In this document: positions 1-54,125 of the stretch, in pieces | Numbering within the stretch: the stretch's first letter is position 1 | Layout: each line of letters starts with the position of its first letter | Assembly: GCF_000143415.4 (NCBI RefSeq) | Contig: NW_003314345.1 | Span: 328,574-392,573, forward strand | Source of the DNA: Selaginella moellendorffii | Lineage: Eukaryota > Plantae > Lycopodiophyta | Length of the DNA stretch: 64,000 bases | Direction: 5' to 3' | Made by a program: the position numbers and the translations under genes | The notes under the pieces: generated by a model | Database searches by the model: none | Told to the model about the DNA's origin: nothing | The model's input: the letters and a program-made list of their open reading frames with translations, nothing else

Positions 1-669
1 CACTTGGATTGGGAGCATCGGCTAGTCGATCTCCCAGGGGAACTAGAGCTGGCTCTTGAACACTTCACCAAGCTACTCCGCTTGTCGGTCTGTGTTCACT
101 CTAGTTTTGGACTTCCCAGTGAGCAGCTCATCACCCAACACTGGGTACAACCTTCCTAGGCCAAACTAGCCTTTCCTGGCCAAACTGGCCTTTCCTGGCC
201 AAACTGGCTCCATTGCAATCCTCCCCCTTACTATACTTTTGGAGCTCACCAAACCCCCTAGGGTCTGGGAGATGAACGCTTTGGGCTTTCACCCTCTCAG
301 ACTTGAACTCGGACTCGGACTCGGACTCAGACTCACACTCGGACTCGGGCTCGGTCTCGGTCTCGGCCTCGGCCTTGGTCTTGGTCTCAGTCTCGATCTT
401 GACTTTGGACTCCATCTCAGGTCCTTCTCGGACTCCATCTCGGGTCCATCTCGGACTCTGTCTCGGATCCATCTCGGACACTTCCACATGTCATGTGTTG
501 GTCCTCTTATGTCCCTTTTCTAGAGACTCACTTATCTCTCACTTCGTGCTTGTTCCTCGAACACTTCATTAGGAGTTCCACTCCCATTCTTGACCTTTCA
601 AGTCAAAGTTTTTAGTCCAAACATGTTACGCTCGTTTGGGTTTTGCTTCGGCCACTACTACATGTCACC
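1..669 (-). mobile_element. Family-B Gypsy LTR, outer copy (left part; continues beyond window start and at 13181-13227)
   Basis: Colinear with the LTR at ~6964-8030 (cacttgga..gcatcgg..gatctccc..gaactagagc; GGACTC array). Interrupted at TCACC by element A. Confidence 0.9.
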
Positions 670-1664
670 TGTAAGGAACCAACTCGCCGAGGTGTCGTAG
701 GCTAAAGGAACCCCGAAAGCATGACCAAAATGACAAAGAGTTCATCGGATGGGACCAAGTCGAAGATCGAGTCCAAGACCGACTCTAGGACCGAGTTCGA
801 GATAGAGTCCGAAATCGAGTCCGAACCCGAATCTGAAGTCGGATCCGAAATCGGGTCCGAGATCGAGCCAGAGACTAAGTCCAAATACTAATACCGGTCA
901 AGGGGTGAAAGCCCAAAGCCTGCGTCTCCCAGGGGGGGGGGGGGGGCTGCAGGGGGTTCCAAAAGTATAGTAGGGATAGTGAGGTCCAGGAACCAGTTTT
1001 GAAGGGACTCTCTAGTTGGGCTTCCAAACCGACTTGAGGTTGAGACTGGGACCGAGGGGCCTTGGGTGGGAGTGAGCATGGACTTGGTTGGTGCCGGAGG
1101 GGCCATCCAAGGAAGTGCTCAAGAGCAGCTCCCACTCCCGAAACCGATTGCGGTGCTTCTGGCTCATGTGGAGTGGTGCCCCACTTGAGTACCATGCAGC
1201 TAATTCATCCTCGCCCTTCCTAGGGGCTTGGGCCTTCCTTCGGGATGGAAGTGGGGGGGTAGAGGTACCCATACCGGGCCGCTAGGCCACGGTGTTTCGC
1301 CCCGGCGTCCCGAAGCAAGTGTTGCACTCAAGACTTGGGATTTAGAGGGTCCCATGATCAAGTCTTGTGGTACCAAGCGATGTTAGGAACCTGGAAGCTT
1401 GGTGTGCTTGGCTGCTTGTGCTTGTGGGGAGTGTAGCCGAACCTTAAGTCCAGTCTAACCTGGGAAGGGGGATTGGGAGTGATTTGGGAATCCGTGGATG
1501 GATGGCTAACACTCCGTTGCTCGTGCAGTGAGTAGCTGAGACCAAGTAGGAGCTAGTACCATAGGCGAGAACCTTGGCAAGGGAACTTAGCAAAGGCCAA
1601 AGCGGTGTTGGACGGATAGACGAGGTAAGCTGGCAAATTGGAAAGGAAAAATTTGTGGCTTACA
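670..1664 (+). repeat. 5' LTR of element A
   Basis: Direct repeat of 12185-13180 with about 23 substitutions and 2 indels counted by eye (~97-98% identical). TG...CA ends. Confidence 0.97.
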
Positions 1665-1667
1665 ATT

Positions 1668-1680
1668 TGGTATCGGAGCC
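1668..1680 (+). promoter_or_regulatory. Primer-binding site (tRNA-iMet type) of element A
   Basis: TGGTATCGGAGCC 3 nt after the LTR; one mismatch to canonical TGGTATCAGAGC. Confidence 0.9.
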
Positions 1681-1723
1681 TTTTCCTCAGTTCTAGCAAA
1701 GGATAGAGGCGGATTGCTGGGAG

Positions 1724-2670
1724 ATGGCAAGGGCAGGGCGTAAGCGAACCCAGGCGGAGACGGAACCTCCGCCAGAGCTGGAGCCTCCGGTCGAACAAGA
1801 GGCTATGGATGAGGAATCCTTGCATGAGGAGGACTCCAGTGAGGAAACTTCCAAACAGGAGTCCGGTGGCGAGGTTCGGTCGTCCAAGGTTCGATTGGAC
1901 GTGCTAGAAGGACAGTTGGCACAGACCAATGCCCTGCTGGAGACTCTCGTACGCAAGCTAAAGCGTGATGAGAAGCGAAGGAAAAAGCGAAAGACTGCGG
2001 ATGCTGGCAGCGTAGAAGGTGCGGACCCTTCGGCAGGGACTGAGGCAAAACCAGACAAGGTCGAACAGACCGAAGTGGAATCAGTCCCTCAGGCAGTTCC
2101 CAAGTACAAACCAAAGCCCCCACCGGTATTCAAGGGAGTGAACGACTATAAGGTTGTGGAGGATTGTTTTACGATATGGAGGACTACTTCCGAGCGTTGC
2201 GGTTACCGAGCTCGGAGAAGGTCCCATGTGCAAAACCATACTTGGCAGATAATGCCAAGTCTTGGTGGAGAACAACGGAGGCCAACGAAGGACCGGTGGC
2301 CACCTGGGACATGATGAAGGCGAGGATCCGCGCAACATACGTTCCTCCGAATGCCACTCTGCATCTGAGAGATGAGCTGAGTAGGCTGAAGCAGACTGGA
2401 ACCATCCAGGAATATGTGAATGGGTTCATGGCAAAGAGGATACTTGTCACGGACATGGGGGATATGGATGCGTTCCATGCCTTTATATCAGGTTTGCAAA
2501 CCTGGGCTCACGGTGAGGTGATGCGCTGGAACCCGACCAACTACAAGGAAGCGTTGGATGCGGCCATCAAGGTGCATTTCAACGATAACCTGCAAAAGGG
2601 AACACGACGGGGTCGGGATCCACGTTTAGCAAAGGGGCTAAACCAAGGGGAACGTATAGCAGGGGGAAAT
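1724..2670 (+). pseudogene. gag: gag of element A (N-terminal part; 1-bp frameshift near 2166; interrupted by element B')
   Basis: ORFs 1724-2314 and 2164-2823 join as VED(W)FYDMEDYF...AKSWW...LKQTGTIQEYVNGF, a retrotransposon gag motif. The right boundary is approximate. Confidence 0.88.
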
Positions 2671-3362
2671 TCAAGAAGAGTTTCTCTAAGTTTCCTAGGG
2701 CTGTTCATGGCCCTATCATTTGGCTACCTTACCGCTCCCTCCCTTGGAGCTTCCACTTTCGCCAACTCGGAGCATTTCGGAATCCCTCCTTGGAAACACA
2801 CTTCCTTTCCCGCAACTTGTTAGCGTCCAACACATTAGTGTTCCTCGCCTAACTTTGTCACTTGGATTCCTTCCAAGGGATTCCACGGCCCTATCTTGGC
2901 CACTCATCTTTTGCTCCTATCCGTTGATTGTTGCATCAAGCAACATCGAATCTCTACCTCCTTCCTTGAGGTATTGTTTTGGTTCCATAGCAAAGACTCT
3001 TCTTTGCCAAGTCCGGAGGATGTTCACCCCTAGTACGTCTCTTTAGCATCTTCTGCTATGGGCTCTATCCACGGCCCAACTTCGTGACCCTCCCATGGGT
3101 CTTTTATAGAGACTACTTTCCTCGGACTCACTATGCCATCGCACGGACATAGTTTATTTCCCTTAGGTGCTCTTCCCACTTGGTTATCACGACCAAGCCA
3201 CACCACCTTAAACAGTTCAATTTCAACATTTTGAACCAGGAACTTCATTCCTTAGCCAACCAAGGACCTTGTCCTTATCTGGCCATAAGATCACCTAGTG
3301 ATCTCACCTTGGCACCTTAACAGAGTTGCCAAGAGGTACTTGGTTTTCTAGACCTCCAAGTT

Positions 3363-3735
3363 GTTGACTATAACCCCGGGGGCATCCCCCACACTTGGCG
3401 GTGCACCCAAGCTAGCCCTTACGGCCAAGGGTTCATAGCAACTGAGATTAGGTGTCCCCATCTCACTCACCACGACCTTGGTGCCACTTGCACCAAAGTG
3501 TTCAAGTTAGATATGCTGAGCTTTCACACTAAGCAATCTAACCGTGCATCACGACTCCGAGGCATCCCTCGCTTGGCGGTGTGCCCAAACCAGTCTCCCC
3601 ACTGAGAGTGCATGACCACCGAAATATGAGTGTCCTCATATTCCAAACCATCACCACGCCCTAGTGATTTGGGACTCGAACCCAAGCACTAGAGGGTCGG
3701 GACTCGAACCCAACCTCCGTATATGCATCTACGGA
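3363..3735 (-). ncRNA. Structured 3' UTR RNA modules of element B' (two T-loop hairpins plus two cloverleaf copies)
   Basis: Reverse complement aligns to 11918-12121 with compensatory changes in the stems. Confidence 0.65.
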
Positions 3736-6229
3736 CAGCATCACACAAGATGCCTGGCGTGACTCCCCACGCCGGTGCACCAACTTATTTTTAAAGCGCG
3801 TTACAGATCACAGCTTAGGAACCTAGTTCCTCCACACTGCCAAGTCCTCTCACTTGACATGTCTGTGATCATGCATGGACTCCTCCATGCTCGGCCCCAT
3901 GGCCCACCCTTTTTGAAGTTATCACCTTCAACTAGGGTATTTGTTTCCCCGACGTGCCAATCTCGCTTGGCAAGTCCTCCGACCATTGTAACATGGTTCC
4001 TGCATAAGCGTGAAAGTCCTTGACCATCGACTTTCGTTCAAAGCCCTCTTTTTGAACACTCGGGAACTACTTCCCTAACCTTGATAACCTTGCCTCATGG
4101 CAAGCTTCAAGACCACGCTTCTGCTGCGCCACTCTGATTTCACGCGTTCCATGAACCATTTACACTTGGCCTTTCTAGGTACTACGCTACCTAGAATCAT
4201 CTTTGGGAACTTTGAAGAAACTCTGTCCCTCAGCTTGCTAAGGCCTCCCCTTTCGCAAGCTTTATAGTTGCCATATAGTCTAACATGGACAATTCCATAT
4301 TTTAGACTCTCCATGGCATCACGGTTGCTAGCAACAACATCCTCGAGCACCCTCTTGATTCTCCACTCCCAACTTTCATAACCACTGTTGGATATGCCCT
4401 TTGATTTCTATGGTTCAGTTCCATCCCAACACTACTTGCCTTTGGCTTCACACCTTTCCTTCGATCATTCTCCTCCAGACCAGGAGGATAGCTTTGCACT
4501 TTCTATCATGCCTTAGCAAGTATTCTTAGGGATGAACCTACCCAATAGCCCAGGGAGTGGTTCCTCAATCCGGGTATGCTCAGCTTATAATCCCACACAC
4601 TGGGGTTACATTGTTGCTTATGGGCCTTTACATGCCCATCACTAGCCTTGCCAAAATTCCATTTTTGGCTTTGTCCAACTTGGGTAGACAGTCCTCTCCT
4701 GTCTCCGCAACCTTGGACATTTGGATAGCACCTTCTATCCATCATTCGCTAGGGACTTAGTCCCTTGGGCTTTATCCATTGCCCTCACGATATCAAACAC
4801 CACCTTCTGGTGTTCTAGAGTGTTCGGGTGTCCCAATGATGGCTTTCTTGACAATGAGTATTTCCTTTTATGACATTGACTTACTATATCGCAACATAAG
4901 AAACTTATCCCCCGTAAGGGTATATCCGACTTCCCTATACTAGAAGTCTTGGGTAGCTACCTTCTACCCGTTTAATCAGTTATTTTGCACCTTTTGCTTA
5001 GTTGCCTCATAGTTGTCAAGTCCTACAACTCATTGCTTGGTGCTTTCACACCTCCATCACTATCTGGGTCACCACACTCCAACTGCATGCTCTGCAGCTT
5101 AAGCTATGCCATTCCCATTTCCATTGGGATTCCTTTGGCAAGGGGTTCTCATGAACCCACCAACATAGCCTCAAGGTATCACACCTTGGCACATTTGGTG
5201 TCTCCACACCATCGGCTCCACGAGCCTACCTCTATGACATTTCCCTTCGTGTCTAAGTCTTTTGCCAAGACCAACACCGCTCTTTCTCATGCCAACCATC
5301 TGTTAGCACTGCCCCATAGAGGTCACACACAACTTTATGTCAAAGTTGTTTTCTTCTGGGAACACCTTTCCCATAACTTTAGCATGGCACATTTTGCCAT
5401 CGATGAGATACTCTCTGTTCTCATCCTTGGATCCTATGATCCCCCCCCATCCTTTGTGGGGTACAACGCACCTTAGTCCAAATGCTTCATTCAGTCCTTT
5501 TTAGGACTCTACTTGAGTCGTCTAGCAGTTTTGGACTTGGTTAATCCACCGACCCGTAAGGTCCTACTTGTGAGGCACTAGCTCACTGGAATACACATCT
5601 TGCATTCTGGTCCTACTCAAAAGGACTATTTTCACAAGTGTTACTCCGACACTTGATTTTGTTCTCTGGGGGCAACCTTTGCCCCTTAGGACTACTTGTC
5701 CATGTGATGAGAATACCAACTCATCCACTCAATACACCCCCAACTCCTTGGGTTGTTCCAGCATTTATTAGAGGTAGCCCCGGCTACCATTTCAAGGACT
5801 TGAGTCCTCTTCCGTATTTGACCTTCCACGGTCATTACCTTTGGTCTCACATTCATGAGCACCAACCTCAACTATATGAGGATAATCTTGTGACTCCTTT
5901 ATTGTTTTGGAGTCTCTATCTTTCCCGTGATCCCAACTTTAGTTGTTTACCACAACAACCTTAGCCAATTTGCTGAGACAAATGCTCATCCGGATCACAT
6001 CCTCAACTCAATGAGGAAAACCTTGCACTGTTCCCAAGATCCCAAAGTCGTTCCATTATTGGCACTTTTCTATCCACCACCTCGTCTACAAGTTCACACA
6101 TGAACTGTAATGGAGATCCATGTCTTCCCGACTTGCTACTCCTCAAGGATAGACCCACTCCTTGGACCTTCCGATGCCAACACTAGTGGTGATATACTTG
6201 AGCACCAATAAAAGTCGGACTAAGGAACA

Positions 6230-6241
6230 GCTCTGATACCA
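6230..6241 (-). promoter_or_regulatory. Primer-binding site (tRNA-iMet) of element B'
   Basis: gctctgatacca is the reverse complement of TGGTATCAGAGC, 3 nt from the LTR end CTTACA. Confidence 0.92.
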
Positions 6242-6244
6242 AAT

Positions 6245-8074
6245 TGTAAGTGACTAGATTTTCCATTCTACTTTAGTCACTTAACCACACCTCCGACCAC
6301 TTGGAGGAGTCTCATTCACAACCTCCATAAGTCCAATCCAGGACTTGGGACTTGCTAGCCCCGAGAATGGCATCCATGCCACTCAACATTTGCACTTGGT
6401 CCAAGTGCTCCACGTGTCCGATCCCAAGACCGACACTCAAAGGTACCACCGACATAGCAGCCCGTTACGCTAAGGCCATGCCCAATCACCTTTGCCACAC
6501 TGGTAGTCCAATACCACTTGCATCACAGTCTTGGCTCCCCAAGACTAGGCAAACCATCCGTGAGTGGTCATCTCAGATCCACTCCTTAGCATCCTTAGGA
6601 TGCCCACAGACTTGGGGAATCGCCTTCCCCAAAGTGCCTTTGTCAGTTCCTACCAAGTCCCTTTCTGCCCCTGGCCATGTTTGCCCACACTGCCACTAGA
6701 TCGAGGCCCACAGGCCCGACCACTAAGTCCCATGGTCCTCTGGGACTTCCTCACCACACGACTGTGTCCTTGGTCACTACCCCAGAGGACTGCTCCTCTT
6801 CCTTTCCACAGTCTAGGCCTTTGGGACAACATTTCGGAACACCGTGGCCTTACGCGAGCCACCTGGGTACTCTCCCCGCCTTTCGCCTTTAGGTGCTCTA
6901 GCCATGGGCTTAGAGCGAGGTTCCGTTGAGCCACGCCTGGTATCCAAGTAGGTAGTGCCACCCACACTTGGACTGGAAGCATCGGCCAGTCGATCTCCCG
7001 GGGGAACTAGAGCCGGCTCTTGAACACTTCACCAAGCTACCCCGCTTGTCGGTCCGTATTCACTCTAGTCTTGGACTTCCCAGTGGTCAGTTCCTCACCC
7101 AACACTGCGTCTGGCCTTCCTGGGCCAAACTGGCCTTTCCTGGCCAAACTGGCTCCACTGCAGTCCTCCCCCTACTATACTTTTGGAGCTCACCAAACCC
7201 CCCAGGGTCTGGGAGACGAACGCTTTGGGCTTTCACCCTCTCAGGCTCTAGACTCGGACTCGGACTCGGACTCGGACTCGGACTCGGACTCGGACTCGGA
7301 CTCGGACTCGGACTCGGGCTCGGGCTCGGTCTCGGTCTCGGCCTCGGCCTCGGTCTCGGTCTCGGTCCCGATCTCGGTCTCGGTCTCGGTCCCAGTCTCG
7401 GTCTCGACTTCGGACTCCATCTCGGACTCCATCTCGGACTCCATCTCGGGTCCATCTCGGGTCCATCTCGGACTCCATCTCGGACTCCATCTCGGGTCCA
7501 TCTCGGACTCCATCTCGGACTCCATTTCGGCTCCATCTCGGGTCCACCTCGGACTCCATCTCGGACTCCATCTCAGACTCCAGTTCGGGTCCATCTCGGG
7601 TCCACCTCAGACTCCATCTCGGACTCCATCTCGGACTCCATCTCGGGTCCATCTCGGACTCCACTTCGGACTCCAACTCGGGTCCATCTCGGGTCCACCT
7701 CGGACTCCATCTCGGACTCCATCTCGGGTCCATCTCGGACTCCACTTCGGACTCCAACTCAGGTCCATCTCGGGTCCACCTCGGACTCCATCTCGGACTC
7801 CATCTTGGACTCCATCTCGGGTCCATCTCGGACTCCACTTCGGACTCCCACGTGTCATGTGTTGGTCCTTTTGGGTCCCTTTTTGGAGCCTCGCCTTTTG
7901 CTCGCTTCGTGCTCGTTCCTCGAGCACTTCGTTGGGAGTTCCACTCCCGCTCTTGACTTTTCAAGTTGGAGCTTTTGGTCCAAACGTGTTACGCTCGTTT
8001 GGCTCTCGCTTCGGCCACTACCATGTGGCGCCCTTCCGGCTCCACTTTGGGTCCTAGGGATTTTGTGTCTCACA
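6245..8074 (-). repeat. 5' LTR of element B' (~1830 bp)
   Basis: Minus strand reads TGTGAGACAC...CTTACA followed by ATT and the PBS. Homologous to 1-669 plus 13181-13227. Confidence 0.9.
7250..7850. repeat. Compound minisatellite in the B' LTR: (GGACTC)n, (GGTCTC)n, (GGACTCCATCTC/GGGTCCATCTC)n
   Basis: Directly visible tandem arrays. A shorter version (~180 bp) lies at ~300-480. Confidence 0.95.
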
Positions 8075-10883
8075 GTCAAGTCATATAGCAGCGTGGGAAA
8101 CAACATATGCTACAACTGCGGTGAAGCGGGACACTTTTCGAGGGAATGTCCCTACCCAAAGAAGGCCAGAGCCAATATGGCCATCAAGTCGGGTGAAGTC
8201 CAAACTGAGGTATGTGATCCAGTCCCTAACTCAAAGTTACTCATTACACGAGCAACTTTGGTAGAGAGTCGTTCCCGACATTTACTAGCCCTCCGAGGGA
8301 AGCTCGGAGGTAGCTCTGTTAAGATCCTTATTGACACGGGTGCTTCGGATAATTTTGTGGCTGCAGACATAGTCCGGCAAGCCGGAGTAACGGTGCAGCG
8401 GCTAGGCGAACCAAGGACTATAGAGTTTGTTCAAGGTAGCCAAAGCACCGATGAGGTACTTCGACAAGCGAGAGTCGAAGTAGGGATATGGAAAGTAGAC
8501 ATGGATTTCACCGTGTTGGACATGGCGGGATTTGACGTGATCTTCGGAATGGACTGGTTCAATCGGTTCGTGGTAGCCCTACATGGACAAGGTAGGAACC
8601 TTGTGGTACTGGCGAATGCCCAAGGAAGAAGATCTAGGGTGGAGGCCCAGGATCTAAAGGTAGGGCAAAGCAAGGCCAAAGAATCCTGCTTAAACCTGGT
8701 GTCCACGAGAGGACAACTCACTAAAGGAACTAAAGCAGCCTTTTTGTGCCTACTCTCGGTGAAGAGTGACAAAAAGACAGGAACGGAAGAAGTACCTTTA
8801 GTGATCCAGCGGGTGTTGGACCAATTCCAGGATACCATGCCGGAGGAGCTACCGGCGGGGTTGCCCCCCGCACGACCGATAGAACATAAGATTGAGCTGG
8901 TCGAGGGTGCTGAGGCGGTGGTTCGTCCCCCCTATCGTTTGAACGAGAAAGAACTCAAGGAGCTCAAGTGCCAACTGGAGGAGTTGGTGGACAAAGGGTA
9001 TGTTAGGTTGAGCAAGTCGTTGTATGGGGCGCCGGTGTTATTTGTGAAAAAGAAAGATGGATCTATGCGCATGTGCATAGATTACCGGTTGCTCAACAAG
9101 TATACAAAAAAGAACAAGTACCCTTTGCCAAGAATTGAGGACCTGTTCGATAGGTTGGGAAAGGCAAAATACTTCTCGAGGATTGACCTAAGGTCAGGAT
9201 ACTACCAGATCAGGGTAGATGAGGAAGATGTCGAGAAGACAACCTGTCGAACGAGGTATGGGAGCTTTGAGTTTCTGGTGATGCCCTTTGGGCTGTGCAA
9301 TGCGCCGGCAACGTTTTCGGCATTGATGAACCACATCTTTGTACCCTATCTGGATCACTTCGTGGTCGTCTATATTGACGACATCCTGATCTATAGCGAA
9401 ACGCTAGAGGAGCATGCCGAACACTTGGCGAAGGTGTTTGAGAAACTAAGGGAACACAAACTGTATGCTAAAGAGAGCAAATGTGACTTTGCTCAACAAG
9501 AGGTAAAGTTTCTTGGGCATGTGGTGGGCCAGGACGGGCTCAAAGTGGACCCGGAGAAGGTCCAAGCGATCTAGGAATGGGAGCGACCATCGAATGTACA
9601 TGAGTTGAGGGCATTCTTGGGGCTATGCAACTACTATCGAAAGTTTATCAGACACTATTCGAGAGTAGCCCTACCCTTAACGGACCAAACAGGAAAAGGG
9701 AAGATGGTATGGACAGCGGAATGCGAGGCGGCATTCGTCCACCTCAAAGGGAAATTGAGGAAGGCTCCCGTGTTGGCATTACCAGACTTTGGTAAGGACT
9801 TTGAGGTAGAAACGGATGCTTCGGACTTTGCGTTGGGCACGGTTTTGAAGCAGGACAACCATCCAGTAGCATTCTTCTCGAAGAAGTTGGACAAGGCTCA
9901 ACGAAAGTGGCCTGCCCATGAGAAGGAATTGTTTGCGGTGGTCAAGGCACTCAAGGAGTGGCGACACTACCTTGGGAGACACTTCAAAGTTTACACGGAC
10001 AATGTGGCAACGAAACACTTCTTGTCACAGCCCGACCTAAGGGGAAAACAAGGTCGGTGGGCCAATGCTTTGGCCGAGTTTGATTGCGAGATCCTGTACA
10101 AGCCTGGGAAGAGCAACATCGTGGCAGATGCGCTAAGTCGAAAAGCGAGCTTGAAGTTGGCGATATCTAGCGCGACAGCAACCTTTTGGGATGATGTGCG
10201 GACCGCATACGAGAGTGATGGTCTAGCACAAGAAGTGTTGCTGAGGAATCTAGAGGCGCGGGAAGCTCACCAGAGAGGTGAGCTGCCAACGGAAGAGAAA
10301 ACGGGCTATGCGGAACGCAACGGACTCATATATTACAAGCAAACGAGGGTGTATGTTCCAGAAGGGGAACTAAGGAAGGTAGCCTTGGAAGAGTGTCATG
10401 ACGGACCTCTCGCGGGACACGGCAGAGTGCCCAAGACGATGGGCTTACTCAAAAGGAAGTATCACTGGCCAGATATGGCTAAGGATGTCCAAGACTATGT
10501 AAAGACATGTCCAACATGTCAGCAAGTCAAAGCCGTGACGAAGGCTAGTGGGGGCTTGTTGTAAAGCATCCCCATTCCAGATCGTCTGTGGAAATGTCTC
10601 AGGATGGACTTCATCACGGGACTACCCCCAAGCGAGGGGTTCGATGCGATATTCGTGGTGGTGGACCGATTTTCAAAGATGGCACATTTCATACCCACCA
10701 CAACGGACGTGGATGCGGAAGGTGTGGCGAAGCTATTCTTCGAACAAGTGGTTCGAGTGCGGCGAAGGCCGGAAGAGATTATCTCAGATCGAGATAAGAT
10801 CTTCACCAGTAGGTTCTGGAGGACACTCCTAGAACAGTATCGCACCAAGTTGAAATTCAGCACAGCCTATCACCCACAGACAG

Positions 10884-10930
10884 GTAATGGGTATTAAGTC
10901 AAGATTGATGGCACTAACACTTCTTGACAG
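10884..10930 (+). other. 47-bp GT-AG intron in retrotransposon integrase
   Basis: ACAG|gtaatg...ctaac...ttgacag|AC. Removal restores HPQT-D-GQTKRVN in frame. Confidence 0.88.
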
Positions 10931-11348
10931 ACGGACAAACGAAAAGGGTGAATAGGCAGCTGGAGGATTATTTGCGATGCTATGTCTCGGGAGACCAGAC
11001 CGACTGGGTAAGTCATTTGGGACTTGCGGAAATGTGTTATAACAACTCACCACATTCGAGCATTGGGGTGAGTCCGTGGGAAGTCATCAATGGGCGAGCT
11101 ATTGAAGGTCCTGTGGAACTCGGCGTGGCCGAGTATCATGGAGAGTTACCCGCAGTGGAGGCATTCACGGCGGAAAGACTCAACATTTGGAATCTAGTGA
11201 GGGATTCCTTGGAACGGGCTCAACAAAGGCAAACTAAGTACGCGAACCAAAAGCGTCGGGATGTGGAGTTCCAAGCTGGGGAGAAGGTGTGGCTGAACAC
11301 CAAGAACCTCAGGCTACCAAGTGGGATCAGCCGGAAGTTGACCCAAAG

Positions 11349-11400
11349 GTAAAAATGCATGTATTCCTGTAAATGAATTGATCTTGAGTTCCTTAAGCAG
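11349..11400 (+). other. 52-bp GT-AG intron in retrotransposon integrase C-terminus
   Basis: CAAAG|gtaaaa...ttaagcag|GTTC. Removal restores RKLTQ-R-FAGPY in frame. Confidence 0.88.
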
Positions 11401-11917
11401 GTTCGCGGGGCCTTACGAGATTGAGGCTCGAATCGGTAAAGTGGCTTACCGTCTCCGACTTCCTCGAGAGATGGGGAAGATGCATCCCGTGTTCCACGTG
11501 AACTTACTCAAGCCGTATTTTGAGGATCCGCTTCGCAAGGACCAAGTAAGACCTTTACCTGAGGTTATCCAAGGGGAGGAGGAATACGAAGTCGAGGCCA
11601 TCCTCAATGCGCGCAAGAGCAAGCGACAAGGACGCGAGCTGAGAGAGTTCCATGTGAAGTGAAAAGGATTTCCACACTGTGAAGCAACATGGGAACCGGA
11701 GGAGAACCTAGCGAACGCGCGAGATCTAGTGGAGGAATTTCTGCATGGCAGAACTCTATGTACTTATGCAAAGTTCAATTAAAAGTATCAATTTGAGAAA
11801 TTGAGCAATGGCATATGTTGGGACCCGAAGGCGCGCCGAAGGTAAGCTAATTAGCATGGGTTAGCTAGGTCGACCAGGCGTAGGGAGCTACGCCCGACTC
11901 CCTGCGGGGATGTCGAA

Positions 11918-12163
11918 TCCGTAGACGTATTCTATGGAGGTTGGGTTCGAGTCCCAACCCCCTAGTAAAGCAAGGCTGGGTTCAAGTCCCGACCCTATAC
12001 TAGGGCCTGGTGAGGTGAGGAGTATAGGGACACCTATATTCCGTTGTCATGAGCTCTTGGCCGGGGAGGCTAACTTAGGCACACCGCTAAGTGGGGGGAT
12101 GCCCCCGGAGACATGGTCAACAAGTCGTAGGATAAAACGAGACGTTCGATGTGGGCATCGAAC
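11918..12163 (+). ncRNA. Structured 3' UTR RNA of element A (T-loop hairpins, GACA hairpin, four-way cloverleaf, pre-PPT hairpin)
   Basis: Multiple stems; covariation with the two copies in element B'. Confidence 0.65.
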
Positions 12164-12170
12164 TTCTTCT

Positions 12171-12184
12171 ATGGGTGGTGGAGT
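12171..12184 (+). promoter_or_regulatory. Polypurine tract of element A
   Basis: atgggtggtggagt immediately before the 3' LTR. Confidence 0.7.
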
Positions 12185-13180
12185 TGTAAGGAACCAACTC
12201 GCCGAGGTGTCGTAGGCTAAAGGAACCCCGAAAGCATGACCAAAATGACAAAGAGTTCATCGGATGGGACCAAGTCGAAGATCGAGTCCAAGACCGACTC
12301 TAGGACCGAGTTCGAGATAGAGTCCGAAATCGAGTCCGAACCCGAATCCGAAGTCGGATCCGAAATCGGGTCCGAGATCGAGCCAGAGACTAAGTCCAAA
12401 TACTAATACCGGTCAAGGGGTGAAAGCCCAAAGCGTGCGTCTCCCAGGGGGGGGGGCTGCAGGGGGTTCCAAAAGTATAGTAGGGATAGTGAGGTCCAGG
12501 AACCAGTTTTGAAGGGACTCTCCAGTTGGGCTTCCAAACCGACTTGAGGTTGAGACTGGGACCGAGGGGCCTTGGGTGGGAGTGAGCATGGACTTGGTTG
12601 GTGCCGGAGGGGCCATCCAAGGAAGTGCTCAAGAGCAGCTCCCACTCCCAAAAGGGAAACCGATTGCGGTGCTCCCGGCTCATGTGGAGTGGTGCCCCAC
12701 TTGAGTACCATGCGGCTCATTGGTCCTCGCCCTTCCTAGGGGCTTGGGCCTTCCTTCGGGATGGAAGTGGGGAGCGAGAGGTACCCATACCGGGCCGCTA
12801 GGCCACGGTGTTTCGCCCCGGCGTCCCGAAGCAAGTGTTGCACTCAAGACTTGGGATTTAGAGGGTCCCATGATCAAGTCTTGTGGTACCAAGGGATGTT
12901 AGGAACCTAGAAGCTTGGTGTGCTTGGTTGCTTGTGCTTATGGGGAGTGTAGCCGAACCTTAAGTCCAGTCTAACCCAGGGAGGGGGATTGGGAGTGATT
13001 TGGGAATCCGTGGATGGATGGCTAACACTCCGTTGCTCGTGCAGTGAGTAGCTGAGACCAAGTAGAAGCTGGTACCATAGGCGAGAACCTTGGCAAGGGA
13101 ACTTAGCAAAAGCCAAAGCGGTGTTGGACGGATAGACGAGGTAAGCTGACAAATTGGAAAGGAAAAATTTGTGGCTTACA
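12185..13180 (+). repeat. 3' LTR of element A
   Basis: Direct repeat of 670-1664, followed by TSD TCACC. Confidence 0.97.
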
Positions 13181-13227
13181 TCACCCTTCCGGCTCCACTT
13201 TGGGGCCTAGGGATTTTGTGTCTCACA
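13181..13227 (-). mobile_element. Terminal piece of the outer family-B LTR
   Basis: cttccggctccactttgg..ctagggattttgtgtctcaca matches 8033-8074. Confidence 0.92.
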
Positions 13228-13439
13228 CAAATACGGCTATGGATAGAAAGAGACTTGGTGGGGACGGAAAAAGGGATATTGGGGAAGGTTGTTCCCCATG
13301 TCTGCAAGCATTCTAAAAATTCTAAAGAATGGATTTAGAATAATCACTCATGAACGGATGGCCCAATTTTTGAGAGACAGGATTATGATGTAGGTGGTGT
13401 TACATCACCGGTGTGACTAAAGTGAATAGGCATAGCATT

Positions 13440-13665
13440 AGCATAATAGGTTAATATGTCAATGGTACCTTTGGGTGTTAGTGATGGATTGGACACATGG
13501 AGCACTTGGACCAAATGTAAAAGTTTAATGGCATGGATGCCATTGTCAAGGTTAGCAAGCCATAAGTCTGGAATAAAATTTATGGAGGTTATGAGTGAGA
13601 CTCTTCCTAGTGGTTGGAAATGTGGTTAAGTGACTAAAGAAAAATGGAAAATTTAATAGTTTACA
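13440..13665 (+). mobile_element. Old degenerate family-B LTR end, opposite orientation
   Basis: Matches the reverse complement of ~6245-6470 (gtggttaagtgactaaag..atggaaaat..ttaca). Confidence 0.75.
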
Positions 13666-17845: not shown

Positions 17846-17918
17846 GCGCTTGTAGCTCAGTGGATAGAGCGTCTGTTTCCGGAGCAGAAAGTCACAGGTT
17901 CGATCCCTGTCTGGCGCG
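17846..17918 (+). tRNA. trnR-CCG: tRNA-Arg, anticodon CCG
   Basis: 73-nt cloverleaf with A box TAGCTCAGTGG, anticodon arm TCTGT-TTCCGGA-GCAGA and B box GGTTCGATCC. Confidence 0.93.
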
Positions 17919-18478
17919 CAAGGAGAATATGCTCCTTCCAAGAGAAGGATGTTCTCCTTTTTATTTTCGTTTTTGCTTTGCCTCCAACGTCTCGTTCCTT
18001 CCTTGTTTGTCCGGTGAATCGCTCGCTCCTCTCCTCAACGTTTAAAGTTTGATAGATGAGTTTGTTGGTCGCGAGATGGGGTCTTAAAATCTGGTTTGGC
18101 GCTTGACAGGGTCTTCGGCGATCGTGGTTTTAGATTTTTCTTTTTTTTCTTCGTTGTGGGCCGCAGGCTAGAAGACCTGGAACGATGGAAGAAATCGTGG
18201 TTGCCGGCATTGTCTCGCAAACAGGGGAAAAGGACGCTGCATTTTAGCTATAGTGATTTTCGCAAACACGCGCTTATAATCCTAGCTAGCAAACGCGGAG
18301 GAACGAGCAACGCGGAGGGACTAGATCGCGTCTAAATGGAGGAATGGGTCGCAGGGCTCGAGGATCGGTAGCCCAAATCCGGGCAGCAGCGCTGTAGGGC
18401 TTCTCAATCGATCGATCGATCGATCGACACAGCGCGAGAGTTTGAGCGAGCGAGAGATTCTAGATTGATAGATGAGCT

Positions 18479-23045: not shown

Positions 23046-23246
23046 CGCCAAATTCCTACTCAAACCTTCGCAATCCCCATTCTAGAGTGCTCGATTCCAA
23101 AGATCTTAATTCTCCAGCCAGCTAAACCCTAGCTACCTCTACACCATAAATTAAGGTTGGCCACTTGGAAGATAGGATTAGGGCAAACGTGACAAAAATA
23201 GTAAAATGTTAAGGAAATAGAAAATAAATTAAGGACAAAAGTAGAA

Positions 23247-23319
23247 TGGAGATGCCGGGTATCGATCCCGGTGCCTCTCGCATGCTAAGCGAGCGCTCTA
23301 CCATCTGAGCTACATCCCC
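23247..23319 (-). tRNA. trnA-AGC: tRNA-Ala, anticodon AGC
   Basis: Reverse complement GGGGATGTAGCTCAGATGGTAGAGCGCTCGCTTAGCATGCGAGAGG...CATCTCCA, a typical plant tRNA-Ala. Confidence 0.97.
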
Positions 23320-23420
23320 AACTTCCTCGAGATAAAATCATCGTCAAGAATCTCTCTGTGGTCAAAGTTAAAAGGGTTTAAAAACAACTTAGGGCTTGCC
23401 ATTGTTCCTTGGTTCTTGCC

Positions 23421-31687: not shown

Positions 31688-33629
31688 ATGGAGCCTGCTG
31701 TATTGTCTTGCATGTTTCTATCAATTCTTGTGGTGGCAACAGTGCAGCAGGGCCTCGCGGCGGCGTCGCCTCCCAACATTCGCGCCGTCAACCTTGGGGG
31801 ATGGCTGGTGATCGAAGGATGGATGACAATGTCCTTGTTTGATAAAATTCCAGAAAACAATGATCTCTTGGTTTACTTCTAGCTAACATAGGACACATCT
31901 GATAATCAAAATTTGTTTCTTGGCTGCAGGATGGGACCCAAATCCAGCTCAAATCTTTGAAACTGGGGAAGTATGTGTCTGCCGAGAATAGCGGTGGAGG
32001 CAAGATGGTTGTCAACAGGCAAAACCCATCCAGCTGGGAGACATTCAAGGTTTTTCCTCTTCCAAAAATTCATTTTTTGAAACAAAATATGTTCTAGCTA
32101 TGGCGAGTAAGCAGCAACAGATTCTATCTCCGTGTATCCAACAATATGTTCGTGTCGGCTCTCAATGGAGGCGGAAGTACAGTCGATTCGACCAAAGACA
32201 CCCCTAAGGAATGGGAAACATTTAAAGTCGTTCGCAATAAATCTCTAGTTCACATCAAAACTTTCAATGGCAGATACTTACAAGTAATGTAATGCTCACT
32301 GTGAAGTTTTCAACTTCCATTTCAACTTGCAGGCCAAGGATGAGAGCCAGCTGACCGCGGATTACAGTGGCGAGCCCGGGTGGGATAATAACAACCCTGC
32401 TGTATTTATCATGACTGTCAACACTGCTCTTCGAGGAGAGTTTCAGCTGGCCAATGCCTATTCCAGAGCTCCTCAGCAAGTCTTTGACGTAAGAAGAGCT
32501 GCTCAGCAAGTCTTCGTGTTCTGATATTACGATATTGTTTTGTTTTTCGTCAAAAGAGACATCGAAACAACTTCATCACAGAAGGCGATTTTCAGTTCCT
32601 TGCTTCCAAGGGAATTAACGCTGTCCGGATTCCCGTTGGCTGGTGGATTGCATACGATCCCAATCCACCGAAGCCGTTCGTTGGAGGATCCATGAAAGCT
32701 CTAGACAACGCATTTACATGGGCTAGGTGAGAGCAACATTCTCTTCTGATGGATTTCCTAAAACTTTCGTCTCAATGTGGTGGTGTTGAAGCAAACACAA
32801 CATCAAAGTTATTATTGATCTTCATGCGGCACCTGGATCACAGAATCCCGAGGATCACAGTGCAAGTCGGGACGGAGTTTCAACGTGGAGGCAGGAAGAG
32901 AATATCGCTCAAACGCTCGAAGTCATCGATATTCTTGCCTCCAAGTAATCGATCAATCTAGATTTTGAAACTCGACTTAAAATGCCTCTCACACATGTAG
33001 GTACTCAAGTCATCCGGCTCTATTAGGCATCGAGCTTCTGAACGAGCCTAATGCTGCCGATGTTGATCTCGACACCCTCAAAAGTTACTACAAACAAGGA
33101 TACCAAAGAGTTCGAAGCAAGAGCCCTAATGCTTACGTGATCATGTGTCAGAGGCTTGGAAGCGATCCAATGGAGCTTGTCAACGCTCTAGACCCTGGCT
33201 CCACAAATGTGGTTCTCGACGTTCATTACTACAACTATTTCACTGGCGAGTTCAAAGGCAAAACTATCCAGTGGCACATTAATTACATCAACAACGAGAG
33301 GAAATCAGACATTGCACGACTGAAGAATGCAAAAAACGCTCCTCTGATCTTTGTTGGTAAGGCTCTCTCCAACATCGAACTGGATCACGAGTGACGAAGA
33401 ATATGTGTCATGTACTTTTGCAGGGGAATGGAGCAACCAGGTAGACGTCCCTGGTGCAACCGACGACGACTTTACAAGATATGGCACTGCACAGCTTACA
33501 GTATACAAAGACGCATCGTTTGGATGGGGATTCTGGAGTTTCAAAACTTTTGATAAAAACATCCACTGGGACTTTAAGAGGTCTGTAGAGAAAGGACACC
33601 TTCGCTTGCCATCGCTTGCCATGAAGTAA
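31688..33629 (+). CDS. GH5 exo-1,3-beta-glucanase with fascin-like insert, copy 1
   Basis: Signal peptide, [19 protein letters not shown] fascin repeats, [32 protein letters not shown]. Confidence 0.93.
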
Positions 33630-38569: not shown

Positions 38570-40524
38570 TCAGTTTATGGCTCCACGCTGAAGCTGTCCC
38601 GTTTGAACAGACCTCTCAAAATCCCAGTGGAGGTTTGATTGATCTTCATTTCTTATGCTCCAGAATGACCACCCGAATGAAGCCTCTTTGTACACCGTCA
38701 GCTGTGCAGTTGCGTACCTTGCGAAGTCTTCATTAGAAGCTCCTATAACGTTGATTTGGTTGCTCCATTCGCCTTGGAAAATATTACCAGTGAATTCTCT
38801 TCTTCCACAATAAAAGAATAAACTTCGGCAAGAACGTACCAACAAAAATGAGAGCGTTTCCTGCTTTTTCCAGGTTTGCAATGCTTGTTCTTCGCTCATT
38901 GTTGATATAATCGACATGCCACTGGACAGATTTGTCGTCGAAGGTTGGAGTGTAGGCGTTGTAGTAATGAACGTCAAGGACCACATTCGTCGAGCCATTC
39001 AGGGTGTTGACGAGCTCGATTGGATCGGCTCCAATTCTCTGGCCCATGATCACGTAAGCAGTGGAGCTGTATTTTCGAACTCTTTCATAGCCTTGCTTGT
39101 AGTAAGTTTCGAGAACGTCGAGGCTAACATCTTCCTTTCGAGCCTCGTTTAGGAGCTCGATGCCCAACAACGCTGGATGTCTCGAGTATCTGCTATGTTG
39201 CAATTTTTCGTCAGTTCCTCGAATTTCTGGAAATAATACCTGGAAGCAAGAAAGTCGATGACTTCGAGTGTTGTATCGATGTTTTCCTTTTTGCTCCACG
39301 TTGAAACTCCATCTCGATTAGCACTGTGCTCCCAGGGATTCTGTGATCCAGGTGCTGCATGAAGATCGATAATAACATTGATGTTGTTGCTCCTGTGACC
39401 ATGAAGGATAAGAGAGAAAGTTATTACTGAAGAGCCAATTTTCACCCAGCCCATGTAAATGCGTTGTCTAGAGCTTGCAAAGATCCTCCAACGAAAGGCT
39501 TCGGTGGGCTGGGATCGTACGCTATCCACCATCCAACGGGAATCCGGACAGTATTGATTCCATTGGCAGCAAGGAACTCAAAATCCTTCGCAGTGACAAA
39601 GTTGTTTCGATGATTCTTCAAAACGTTAATTGAAAGAAGGAACATTGTAATCAGCGTGGATATAACTTTGAAAATCATACGAACCGCAAAGACAACTTGG
39701 GCGGCGGAAGAAGTGCCGAAAGCATTGGCTAGTTGAAACTCTCCATGAAGAGGGGCTCGATTGCTCATCTCGAAAACGGCAGCGTTGTTATCCCACCCGG
39801 GCTCGCCATTGTAATCGGCAGTGAGCTGGTTTTCATCTTTGGCCTGGAAATTTGGAACCACAAGGAACTCAACGAGGCCATGAATCATGATCATATAAAA
39901 ATGTTTGGAGAGATCTTACCTGCAAGTACATGCCACTGTAAGCTTTTATATGAACTAGCTTGGGGTTATTGGGATTGCGAAGAATCTCAAATGTTTCCCA
40001 TTCTCCCGGAGTGTCTTTGGTTGAATCCACGCCGCTCTGATTAGCCACCGAGACAAAGTTGTTGTTGAAGACACGGAGCTGGAATTTGGTGCTGCTTACT
40101 CGCCATAGCTACACCAGAATTTGCTTGAAAATTGGGAACAGAGATTCTTGTGCTCAATGTGAGGACTAAACCTTAAATGTCTCCCAGCCCGATGCCATTT
40201 GCCTGTCCACAACCATTTTCTGCCCTCCTCCATCCTCGGCGCAAACATATGTTCCTAGATTCACGGATTTGAGCGCTATTTGCGTTCCATCCTGCAAAAG
40301 ATCTTATCCATAGGCAATGATGATTGTTTTCTTTTGTGAACCTAACCTACCAGGAGATCCCTGTTTTCTAGAATGGCGTCGAACAGGGACATTTTCATCC
40401 ATCCTTCAATCACTAGCCATCCCCCAAGGTTGACGGAGCGAATCTTGAGGGGCGAAGCTGCAAAACTCTGGATTACTGTCAGCAGGGAAATTGTTAGAAA
40501 CATGAGCAAAAAATCTGGCCGCAT
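38570..40524 (-). CDS. GH5 exo-1,3-beta-glucanase with fascin-like insert, copy 2
   Basis: Same motifs and exon layout as copy 1 ([40 protein letters not shown]). Confidence 0.92.
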
Positions 40525-53199: not shown

Positions 53200-54125
53200 A
53201 ATATGAAGCTAAAAAGTGAAGGAATATGAGCATGGAGCAACTCTTAAATGTACAACCCAAGGGGTGAAAGGATAGAAGTATAGATCAACTTTTAAGCGTA
53301 CAACCTAAGTAGTGAAGGGACAAAAACACGAAGCAACTTAGAACATTTCTATAACATTCAACATCCCAATGCTAAAACTAACATATAGAATAGAGTTAAA
53401 CAAAATCTGGTGTTATTTTAGCATACCGATGACGATATAAATACTCCACTAGCTAACATGGTATGGAGCTTAGACTTAAACTTAAACCAGATGCAAAACA
53501 AGGACAAACATGTAAATAGGAGTTACACTAAGTCTTAGGTTGGTTGGCCATGGCTAACCTACCAACTATCCCTACTATACATTTAGAACCCTCCCCATTT
53601 TGAGAAATGCATGCTTTGGGCTTTCACTTCAGTCCTAGGAATTAGTATTTAGGACAATCACAAAAACATACTAATTATGGAATGGTTTTAGATTGTGAAT
53701 TTGAAGCCATTGGGACCAAATGGGACCAACACATGGGGTATGATAGGGAGGGTGTCTTGACGGACATAATAAGCTATCACTTAATAAATATTGAGGGACC
53801 AAGCTCAATATTGCAAAGGTTCTTGTCAAGCCATACAGGATAAAGCAAAAAAGAATTAACAAACTAGGCTAAATATGCTTGGATAAATAGATACTTTAGA
53901 ATTCCTTCCTTATGCTTGTTTAGCCAAGTATAGATGTTAAATTAAGTTTACTAACATTTAAACAAGAGGGACCGATAAAGGGTCCAACAATACTGATGTC
54001 TTACTACTATAGTAGTAAAAGAAGAATATCTAAAAGGACTCATTGACATATAATTTTTGATACCCAAAGTCACATTTATGACACTGTCCCCCCTTTAGGG
54101 GAGATCGATGTCCTCATCGATGCAT
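53200..54125 (-). mobile_element. Family-C LTR remnant with PPT junction
   Basis: Minus strand: gaggacatcgatct..aaaggggggacag|TGTCATAAATG, LTR starting at 54083. Related copies at ~55806-55900 (inverted), ~56760-57560 and ~13680-13980. Confidence 0.65.

What the first reader, a model, noticed from the sequence alone, without database searches (positions are those of the whole stretch)
12008..12121. Covarying cloverleaf/pseudoknot RNA module in retrotransposon 3' UTRs (three copies in two families)
Seen: A 12043-12121 and B' (minus) 3544-3619 and 3363-3442 all fold into a four-way junction with compensatory changes. Closing stem: GTTG-TCATG/CATGG-T-CAAC vs GTTG-CTATG/TATAG-T-CAAC vs GTG-GTCATG/CGTGAT-G-CAC. 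Arm 1: CTCTT/GGGAG vs CTCTC/GGGAG vs CCCTT/AAGGG. Arm 2: CTTAG/CTAAG vs TTGG/CCAA around a G(C/T)(A/G)CACCG loop. Arm 3: GGGG/CCCC vs GAGG/CCTC around GATG. Each is preceded by a GACA-loop hairpin (GGAGTATAGG/CCTATATTCC vs GAATATGAG/CTCATATTT) and an invariant TGGTGA that could pair with the CACCG loop. The structure persists in B' although its coding region has decayed. Inference: a functional cis RNA element (packaging/dimerisation signal, unspliced-RNA export element, exonuclease block or ribozyme), possibly what selects the intron-retaining genome. I do not recognise it as a known family.
Basis: partly seen in the sequence, partly recalled or inferred. Interest (0 to 1): 0.8.

Follow-up and report, generated by a model that had tools for sequence, protein, structure and literature searches.

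The report
Folded RNA tag shared by parasite
A plant jumping gene and a gene-less parasitic relative share a 250-base stretch whose predicted RNA fold is kept despite many letter changes; it is likely the tag by which their RNA is paired and packed into the helper's particles, a signal not found described for plants in the papers searched.

Summary
Real. The three copies are at the stated places and keep one predicted fold through compensatory and G-U changes on the RNA strand only. Two corrections. The unit is the 3' half of a ~250-nt module (A 11868-12122; B' 3781-3544) that also has an 8-nt palindrome, a GGAG-loop hairpin and two tRNA T-arm mimics. A fits SM1-Galahad of Selaginella (PMC3350952). 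B' is a high-copy non-coding LTR element, and the module is the only interior sequence beyond the primer site that it shares with A. No Rfam family matches. No copy was found in 99 loci of related elements, whose sampled members mostly lack a long 3' UTR. Best reading: a dimerisation/packaging tag (0.45); main rival: an export element for unspliced RNA (0.27). It lies 3' of the candidate introns, so alone it cannot select unspliced RNA. The pseudoknot is unproven. The scan noted this module at least three times before on other DNA of this genome.

The parts
11868..12122 (+). Whole structured module in the 3' UTR of element A (between the chromodomain ORF stop at 11780-11782 and the PPT)
11868..11875 (+). 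8-nt palindrome, the only one in 11850-12122; candidate dimer-initiation site (weak, post hoc)
11877..11894 (+). 7-bp hairpin with GGAG tetraloop; same loop with changed stem pairs in B' 3773-3756
11895..11938 (+). Two further hairpins, present at the same places in B' (3754-3737, 3735-3716)
11939..11959 (+). T-arm mimic 1: 7-bp stem, loop UUCGAGU (11946-11952)
11960..12005 (+). Long hairpin capped by T-arm mimic 2, loop UUCAAGU (11981-11987)
12008..12013 (+). Invariant UGGUGA; candidate pseudoknot strand for the arm-2 loop
12019..12042 (+). 10-bp hairpin with GACA loop
12043..12121 (+). Four-way junction, copy A: closing helix 12043-12057/12107-12121, arm 1 12058-12072, arm 2 12073-12092 (loop 12079-12086), arm 3 12093-12106
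3544..3781 (-). Whole module in B' (B1): palindrome 3781-3774, T-loops 3708-3702 and 3680-3674, UGGUGA 3656-3651, GACA hairpin 3644-3621, junction 3619-3544
3363..3472 (-). Second copy of the 3' domain only in B' (B2): UGGUGA 3472-3467, GACA hairpin 3465-3443, junction 3442-3363
670..13180 (+). Element A, Ty3/gypsy chromovirus fitting SM1-Galahad; LTRs 670-1664 and 12185-13180 (96.6% alike), TSD TCACC, PBS 1668-1679, PPT 12171-12184
2664..8074 (-). Element B', non-coding LTR element nested in A's gag; 5' LTR 8074-6245, PBS 6241-6230; its 3' LTR is missing in this copy and the 3' boundary is approximate
10884..10930 (+). Candidate GT-AG intron 1 in A's integrase (splicing not shown here)
11349..11400 (+). 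Candidate GT-AG intron 2 in A's integrase (splicing not shown here)

Best explanation
The module is a conserved stretch, predicted to fold as RNA, that an autonomous-type chromovirus (A) and a non-coding LTR parasite (B) share, and it likely works as the signal by which genomic RNA is dimerised and packed by the helper's Gag. Shown: the shared sequence, the structure-preserving changes on the RNA strand, B's lack of coding capacity and its sharing of PBS, PPT and LTR ends with A. Inferred: a row of short hairpins and a compact four-way junction, probably closed by the UGGUG/CACCG pseudoknot, display G-rich loops (GGAG, GGGGA, GAUG) to the CCHC knuckle of Gag; the 5' palindrome may start dimer formation; the T-arm mimics probably give tertiary docking. 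B would keep the module, and a second copy of its 3' domain, to compete for A's particles. Because the tag is on spliced RNA too, retention of the introns would need a separate filter, such as splicing that removes the primer site.
For: The module is the only interior sequence shared by A and B' beyond a 32-nt PBS match: blastn gives 73% over 188 nt and 77% over 120 nt, and nothing for pol by blastn, tblastn or profile. B is abundant with the same non-coding interior (14,794 contigs laid on 641 nt in one DNA run; few majority differences across the interior), so it must borrow Gag, RT and integrase, and has no use for a translation signal. B-type LTRs are preceded by A's PPT (loose end at 8074 and joint 8071/12187). 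Structure is selected at RNA level; 9 of 9 visible common B-family variants at paired sites keep the pair, where 150 of 270 possible transitions would. A encodes a CCHC knuckle (PF00098). A GGAG tetraloop is a high-affinity NC site in HIV-1 SL3 (PMC13736810, passages). The only 8-nt palindrome of each module lies at the same place, with a central swap that keeps self-pairing (chance 0.023; A-A -17.1, B-B -18.3, A-B -9.7 kcal/mol). In B' the module lies at least 690 nt from the missing 3' end, against 63 nt in A, so it does not depend on PPT distance.
Against: No binding, packaging or probing data. Retroviral Psi lies in the 5' leader, not here. Related elements package without this module: 0 hits above E=1.6 in 99 loci, and in 27 loci where it could be placed the LTR starts 32-73 nt after the chromodomain match. 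The same review calls SL3 as sole determinant misleading. The palindrome is post hoc and predicted partly paired (unpaired probability 0.01-0.89). B' is hairpin-rich throughout (mean z -2.0, 18 of 35 windows at or below -2), so folding energy alone does not single out the module. B and A also share an LTR segment (12268-12485 vs 7385-7170) that could carry the signal. Covariation rests on three copies from one genome. That A is B's helper is inferred.
Confidence: 0.45

Rival explanations
1. A CTE/RTE/MTE-like element that exports or protects unspliced genomic RNA. A's genomic RNA would retain introns and an early stop; B's is long and non-coding; both would need splicing-independent export or shelter from decay.
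For: Position between pol and the 3' LTR is that of musD MTE, which also needs a pseudoknot (PMC4588558, first part of the text). Relatives without the module also lack the extra integrase length: 435 nt in 34 of 65 loci against 519 nt in A. Export of plant LTR RNA has not been studied directly (PMC12786077, passages).
Against: The intron-module link is one lineage against the rest. No likeness to a described export element in Rfam. It does not explain the palindrome or why B carries the 3' domain twice. Not exclusive of packaging.
Confidence: 0.27
2. A tRNA mimic or tRNA-binding platform: the two T-loops dock on each other or on the primer tRNA, or recruit a tRNA-handling factor, to deliver primer or to cyclise the genome.
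For: Two loops UUCRAGU on 5-7 bp stems in both families; weak mascRNA match through the T-arm (14.1 bits, cutoff 42.5).
Against: ARAGORN finds no tRNA here. The arm-2 loop pairs with the 5' end region no better than shuffles (0.14-0.43). The duplicated copy B2 has no T-arms yet keeps UGGUGA and CACCG.
Confidence: 0.09
3. A DNA-level Pol III element: the two GGTTCRAGTCC are B boxes (promoter or TFIIIC site), as in Helenus TRIMs, and the hairpins are a by-product.
For: Both match the B-box core; Helenus with tRNA-like LTRs occurs in Selaginella (PMC10886601, abstract and passages).
Against: Not in the LTR; G-U changes are strand-specific; most of the conserved pairs lie outside the boxes.
Confidence: 0.06
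4. A new self-cleaving ribozyme or exonuclease block that processes the RNA's 3' part.
For: Compact four-way junction with invariant loops and a possible pseudoknot; non-autonomous gypsy partners with ribozymes exist (retrozymes, PMC4918200, passages).
Against: No Rfam ribozyme or xrRNA match; none of 3 hammerhead-core matches in the window lies in A or B'; cleavage between pol and PPT would destroy the genome.
Confidence: 0.05
5. No specific function: an old shared stretch kept paired by general selection for folded RNA or by hairpin-repair mutation.
For: B' is structured throughout on both strands; two-sided changes are also in excess on the opposite strand in 3 of 4 tests.
Against: 78% identity in the module against none detectable elsewhere in the interior; unpaired bases are kept too (44 of 54).
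Confidence: 0.05

Closest known systems
SM1-Galahad, Galadriel-clade chromovirus of Selaginella moellendorffii (Novikov et al. 2012, PMC3350952; section 2.1 read whole, passages, supplement searched for two terms)
   Same: LTRs near 1 kb with poly-G, tRNA-Met PBS, main ORF ending before the chromodomain, a 309-bp chromodomain ORF (11471-11779), high copy number.
   Different: The paper has no occurrence of 'untranslated', 'hairpin', 'intron' or 'non-autonomous'; it describes neither the module nor the partner B. No sequence of SM1-Galahad was available for direct comparison.
Retroviral packaging signal Psi with DIS (HIV-1 SL1-SL3, MLV SL-A to SL-D; PMC13736810, passages)
   Same: Cluster of short hairpins, GGAG tetraloop, palindrome next to it, a CCHC-knuckle Gag in cis.
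   Different: Located 3' of pol, present on spliced RNA too, has T-arm mimics and a four-way junction; GACA is not the MLV GACG loop; no function shown.
musD MTE / IAP RTE / MPMV CTE export elements (PMC4588558, first of two parts; PMC12786077, passages)
   Same: Between pol and 3' LTR, multi-hairpin, possible pseudoknot, in an element whose genomic RNA is likely unspliced.
   Different: No sequence or Rfam likeness; plant host; shared with a non-coding partner that carries part of it twice.
Non-autonomous plant LTR elements: LARDs (name recalled and from earlier scan notes), TRIMs/SMARTs, retrozymes, Helenus (PMC4918200, PMC10886601, PMC4717578; passages)
   Same: B has LTR, PBS and PPT like a gypsy helper and no genes; shared interior sequence between parasite and helper is reported for SMARTs and Helenus.
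   Different: Retrozymes share only PBS/PPT boxes and carry hammerheads in the LTR; Helenus has its tRNA-like part in the LTR; none of the passages seen describes a shared folded module.

Membership tests
SM1-Galahad (element A) | About 1-kb LTRs with poly-G, tRNA-Met PBS, PPT, gag-PR-RT-RH-INT order | tested here: met
SM1-Galahad (element A) | Chromodomain in a separate 309-bp ORF after the main ORF | tested here: met
   ATG 11471 to stop 11780-11782, 309 nt; paper text
SM1-Galahad (element A) | Over 80% DNA identity to the published family sequence | not testable with these tools
   sequence not held; no genome for the window
Galadriel clade | Grouping with Galadriel in an RT-RH-INT tree | tested here: inconclusive
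   quick RH-INT tree of 91 unnamed or loosely named rows leaves A on a long, unsupported branch; best full-length relatives 66-68% in RT
Retroviral Psi/DIS | In the 5' leader, absent from spliced RNA | tested here: not met
   module is 3' of pol and of both candidate introns
Retroviral Psi/DIS | Hairpins with exposed G-rich loops; kept by a defective derivative | tested here: met
   (predicted folds)
Retroviral Psi/DIS | Exposed palindrome that starts dimerisation | tested here: inconclusive
   8-nt palindrome at the same place in both families, predicted partly paired
Retroviral Psi/DIS | Binds Gag and is needed for packaging | not testable with these tools
   needs experiment
CTE/RTE/MTE export elements | Between the last ORF and the 3' LTR | tested here: met
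   A: 11868-12122, LTR at 12185; B' 3' end is missing
CTE/RTE/MTE export elements | Sequence or structure match to a described element | tested here: not met
   Rfam
CTE/RTE/MTE export elements | Drives export of unspliced RNA | not testable with these tools
   needs experiment
Known self-cleaving ribozymes / retrozymes | Conserved catalytic core; hammerhead in the LTR | tested here: not met
tRNA gene, tRNA-SINE or Helenus (TRIMp3) | Box B core GGTTC | tested here: met
   two per module
tRNA gene, tRNA-SINE or Helenus (TRIMp3) | Whole tRNA-like unit, inside the LTR of a short element | tested here: not met
   ARAGORN finds 2 tRNAs in the window, neither here; module is interior; elements are 5-7 kb
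LARD-type non-autonomous element (B') | Long non-coding interior with PBS, many copies | tested here: met
LARD-type non-autonomous element (B') | Two LTRs and PPT in one copy | tested here: inconclusive
   this copy lacks its 3' end; other copies show A's PPT before the B LTR

The most novel reading that the evidence does not exclude
A 3'-located packaging and dimerisation signal of a plant LTR retrotransposon, built from tRNA T-arm mimics and a pseudoknotted four-way junction, which a gene-less parasite has copied and partly doubled to hijack the helper's particles, while a two-letter swap in the palindrome makes parasite and helper RNAs pair only with their own kind and so stay separate lineages.
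Probability: 0.15. Interest if true: 0.8.

Novelty: new variant of a known kind. Interest (0 to 1): 0.5.

Why it matters
[quoted passage not shown] Here evolution has narrowed the candidate to one 250-nt structure with defined helices and natural compensatory variants, which makes the question testable with short RNAs. Limits: one species so far, no function shown, and already noted by this scan on other pieces of the genome.

Tried and rejected
Strict DNA patterns: 0 matches in viral contigs and metagenome contigs; these only find near-identical family members. No RNA holder was listed. Two raw RNA runs, read in part, laid 248 and 131 reads on 3300-12300, over 90% running on into other loci, depth under 1 on the module and no splice joints: no evidence either way on expression or splicing. 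One run of another organism laid nothing, no proof of absence. Long-range pairing of the arm-2 loop with the 5' end: not above shuffles. Arm-2 loop as DIS: palindromic in B2 only, and a common variant removes it. UGGUGA as a masked splice donor: 6, 5 and 7 of 8 consensus places in A, B1, B2, left as a lead. One search had wrong coordinates for four 5' helices; its A-B1 counts were discarded and redone without hand-set helices. The 5' half alone shows no two-sided change in the main stretch tested (11919-12004). Exact protein look-up of two host ORFs found nothing. The protein tree did not finish its careful search.

Full report
Setting. The window is plant DNA (COBRA, LRR, PP2C and other hits). 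Element A spans 670-13180 with LTRs 96.6% alike, TSD TCACC, a tRNA-Met-type PBS, gag, CCHC knuckle, protease, RT, RNase H, integrase and a chromodomain. Its LTR size, poly-G, PBS and separate 309-bp chromodomain ORF fit the published description of SM1-Galahad of Selaginella moellendorffii (PMC3350952, section 2.1 read whole; ORF length). That lead came from earlier scan notes. The species and family are thus inferred from a description, not from a sequence comparison, and my own tree left A unresolved. B' lies on the minus strand inside A's gag, with an LTR at 8074-6245 and a PBS, and has lost its 3' end. Its three frames have 45-49 stops in 828 codons and a profile of 20 related polyproteins finds nothing in it. 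Contigs of a DNA run cover B' at least as deeply as A and show few majority differences in the rows displayed (40 of 532), so B spread as a non-coding family. B-type LTRs elsewhere are preceded by A's PPT.

The observation. Each folds alone into a four-way junction, but not quite as drawn. On the three-copy alignment 10 of 39 pairs change on both sides and 95.7% of cells pair, above all 500 shuffles; slid partners give 37-50%. That structure was derived from the same three sequences, so I also took pairs from one copy only, mapped them by plain sequence alignment and placed the same substitutions at random: A to B1 gave 7 broken against 14.6 expected and 5 two-sided against 1.7 (P 0.013); all six comparisons of the 3' domain gave fewer breaks than the null (P at most 0.016). 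One-sided, pair-keeping changes occur on the RNA strand (12, 8, 4, 5) and hardly on the other (1, 1, 0, 1), which points to RNA and not to a DNA cruciform. Variation among B copies agrees: of 15 visible variants at 10% or more in 3363-3774, 9 fall on paired sites and all 9 keep the pair, where 150 of 270 transitions would (about 0.005 by my arithmetic). Caveats: 15 of 42 such places in that run were not displayed, pairs came from the window copy's own fold, and one variant (3698) may stem from A contigs laid there.

The unit is larger. Identity between A and B' runs from about 11868 to 12122 while the chromodomain region scores at shuffle level. From 5' to 3': an 8-nt palindrome, a GGAG-loop hairpin, two more hairpins, two T-arm mimics with loops UUCRAGU, UGGUGA, the GACA hairpin and the junction. 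That is the only support for the pseudoknot: five possible pairs, invariant in 3 of 3. The palindrome is the only 8-mer palindrome in each module, sits at the same place and differs by a central swap that keeps self-pairing (simulated chance 0.023); I noticed it after the fact and it is predicted partly paired.

Spread. Rfam has no match above chance (best relevant: mascRNA 14.1 bits through the T-arm, cutoff 42.5). Strict patterns found nothing in viral or metagenome contigs. A covariance model found only the three input copies in 606,321 bases. In the 27 loci where an LTR start could be placed it is 32-73 nt after the chromodomain match, against 436 nt in A. So the long 3' UTR and its module look lineage-specific, on a narrow sample.

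Mechanism. A gene-less element must be exported, packed, primed, reverse-transcribed and integrated by a helper. PBS, PPT and LTR ends account for the last three. The module is the one interior piece that B shares with A, B has doubled part of it, its distance to the PPT differs between the two, and it displays G-rich loops, a GGAG tetraloop (an NC site in HIV-1; PMC13736810, passages, which also warns that SL3 is not the sole determinant) and a candidate dimer palindrome. I therefore put packaging/dimerisation first (0.45). Export or protection of unspliced RNA is the main rival (0.27): the position and possible pseudoknot recall musD MTE (PMC4588558, first of two parts read) and relatives lacking the module also lack the integrase inserts. 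The two may both hold. All functional steps are inferred. RNA data gave no verdict.

Literature and novelty. Nine paper searches that returned and one on Galahad/Selaginella showed no description of this structure; I saw listings and abstract starts for most, passages for PMC2864245, PMC6317226, PMC3592414, PMC12786077, PMC4918200, PMC5680766, PMC13736810, PMC4717578 and PMC10886601 (plus its abstract), part 1 of PMC4588558, and section 2.1, passages and a two-term supplement search for PMC3350952. Subscription journals, Repbase entries and other supplements were not seen and could hold the B family or the motif. The terms LARD, T-loop consensus and DIS subtype incompatibility are recalled. 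This scan noted the same module on other pieces of the genome at least three times (e1-10289757, e1-10291063, e1-10291085), two reading it as a packaging tag and one as an export signal; these are not independent support.

Verdict. A real, selected RNA structure of no catalogued family, most likely a cis signal of genomic RNA shared by a helper and its parasite: a new variant of a known kind, interest 0.5.

Noticed in passing
window 10884-10930 and 11349-11400 (+): Two short AT-richer GT-AG inserts break the integrase frame of A; the spacing from core to SH3/chromodomain is 519 nt against 435 nt in 34 of 65 relatives. Many earlier scan notes cover this. Splicing not seen here.
   Followed up: partly
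window 1625 to about 1690 (+): A strong donor-like site 40 nt before the PBS and an acceptor-like site just after it would remove the primer site from spliced RNA; B' has an acceptor-like site after its PBS too. Lead from earlier notes; untested.
   Followed up: partly
window 12143-12163 (+); L001-L082 just after the chromodomain: A small hairpin with core GATG-N4-CATC lies just before the PPT in A and in 53 of 67 related loci, with changed outer pairs in L066.
   Followed up: partly
window 2670-6240 (-): The whole interior of B' is hairpin-rich on both strands (mean z -2.0 and -2.3).
   Followed up: partly
window 1-669 and 13181-13665: A is inserted in an older B-type LTR (TSD TCACC), and B' is inserted in A: three-level nesting of the two families.
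   Followed up: partly
window 12268-12485 vs 7385-7170; 53565-53655: A and B LTRs share a segment with 12-nt GAGTCC-type repeats and a conserved box; a further decayed copy of the box lies near 53.6 kb.
   Followed up: no
L001-L079, 150-500 nt after the chromodomain: The LTRs of the 52 grouped relatives look rich in short hairpins, unrelated to this module; not folded.
   Followed up: no
window 31760-33341 and 38852-40461: A long inverted duplication, 73-86% alike, around an LRR gene and an SNF2-domain ORF.
   Followed up: no
window 17846-17919 (+), 23246-23320 (-): tRNA-Arg(CCG) and tRNA-Ala(AGC) genes.
   Followed up: no
L082-L099: Eukaryote-type chromovirus integrase matches in 18 loci of prokaryote genome records, most on short contigs, probably contamination.
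   Followed up: no
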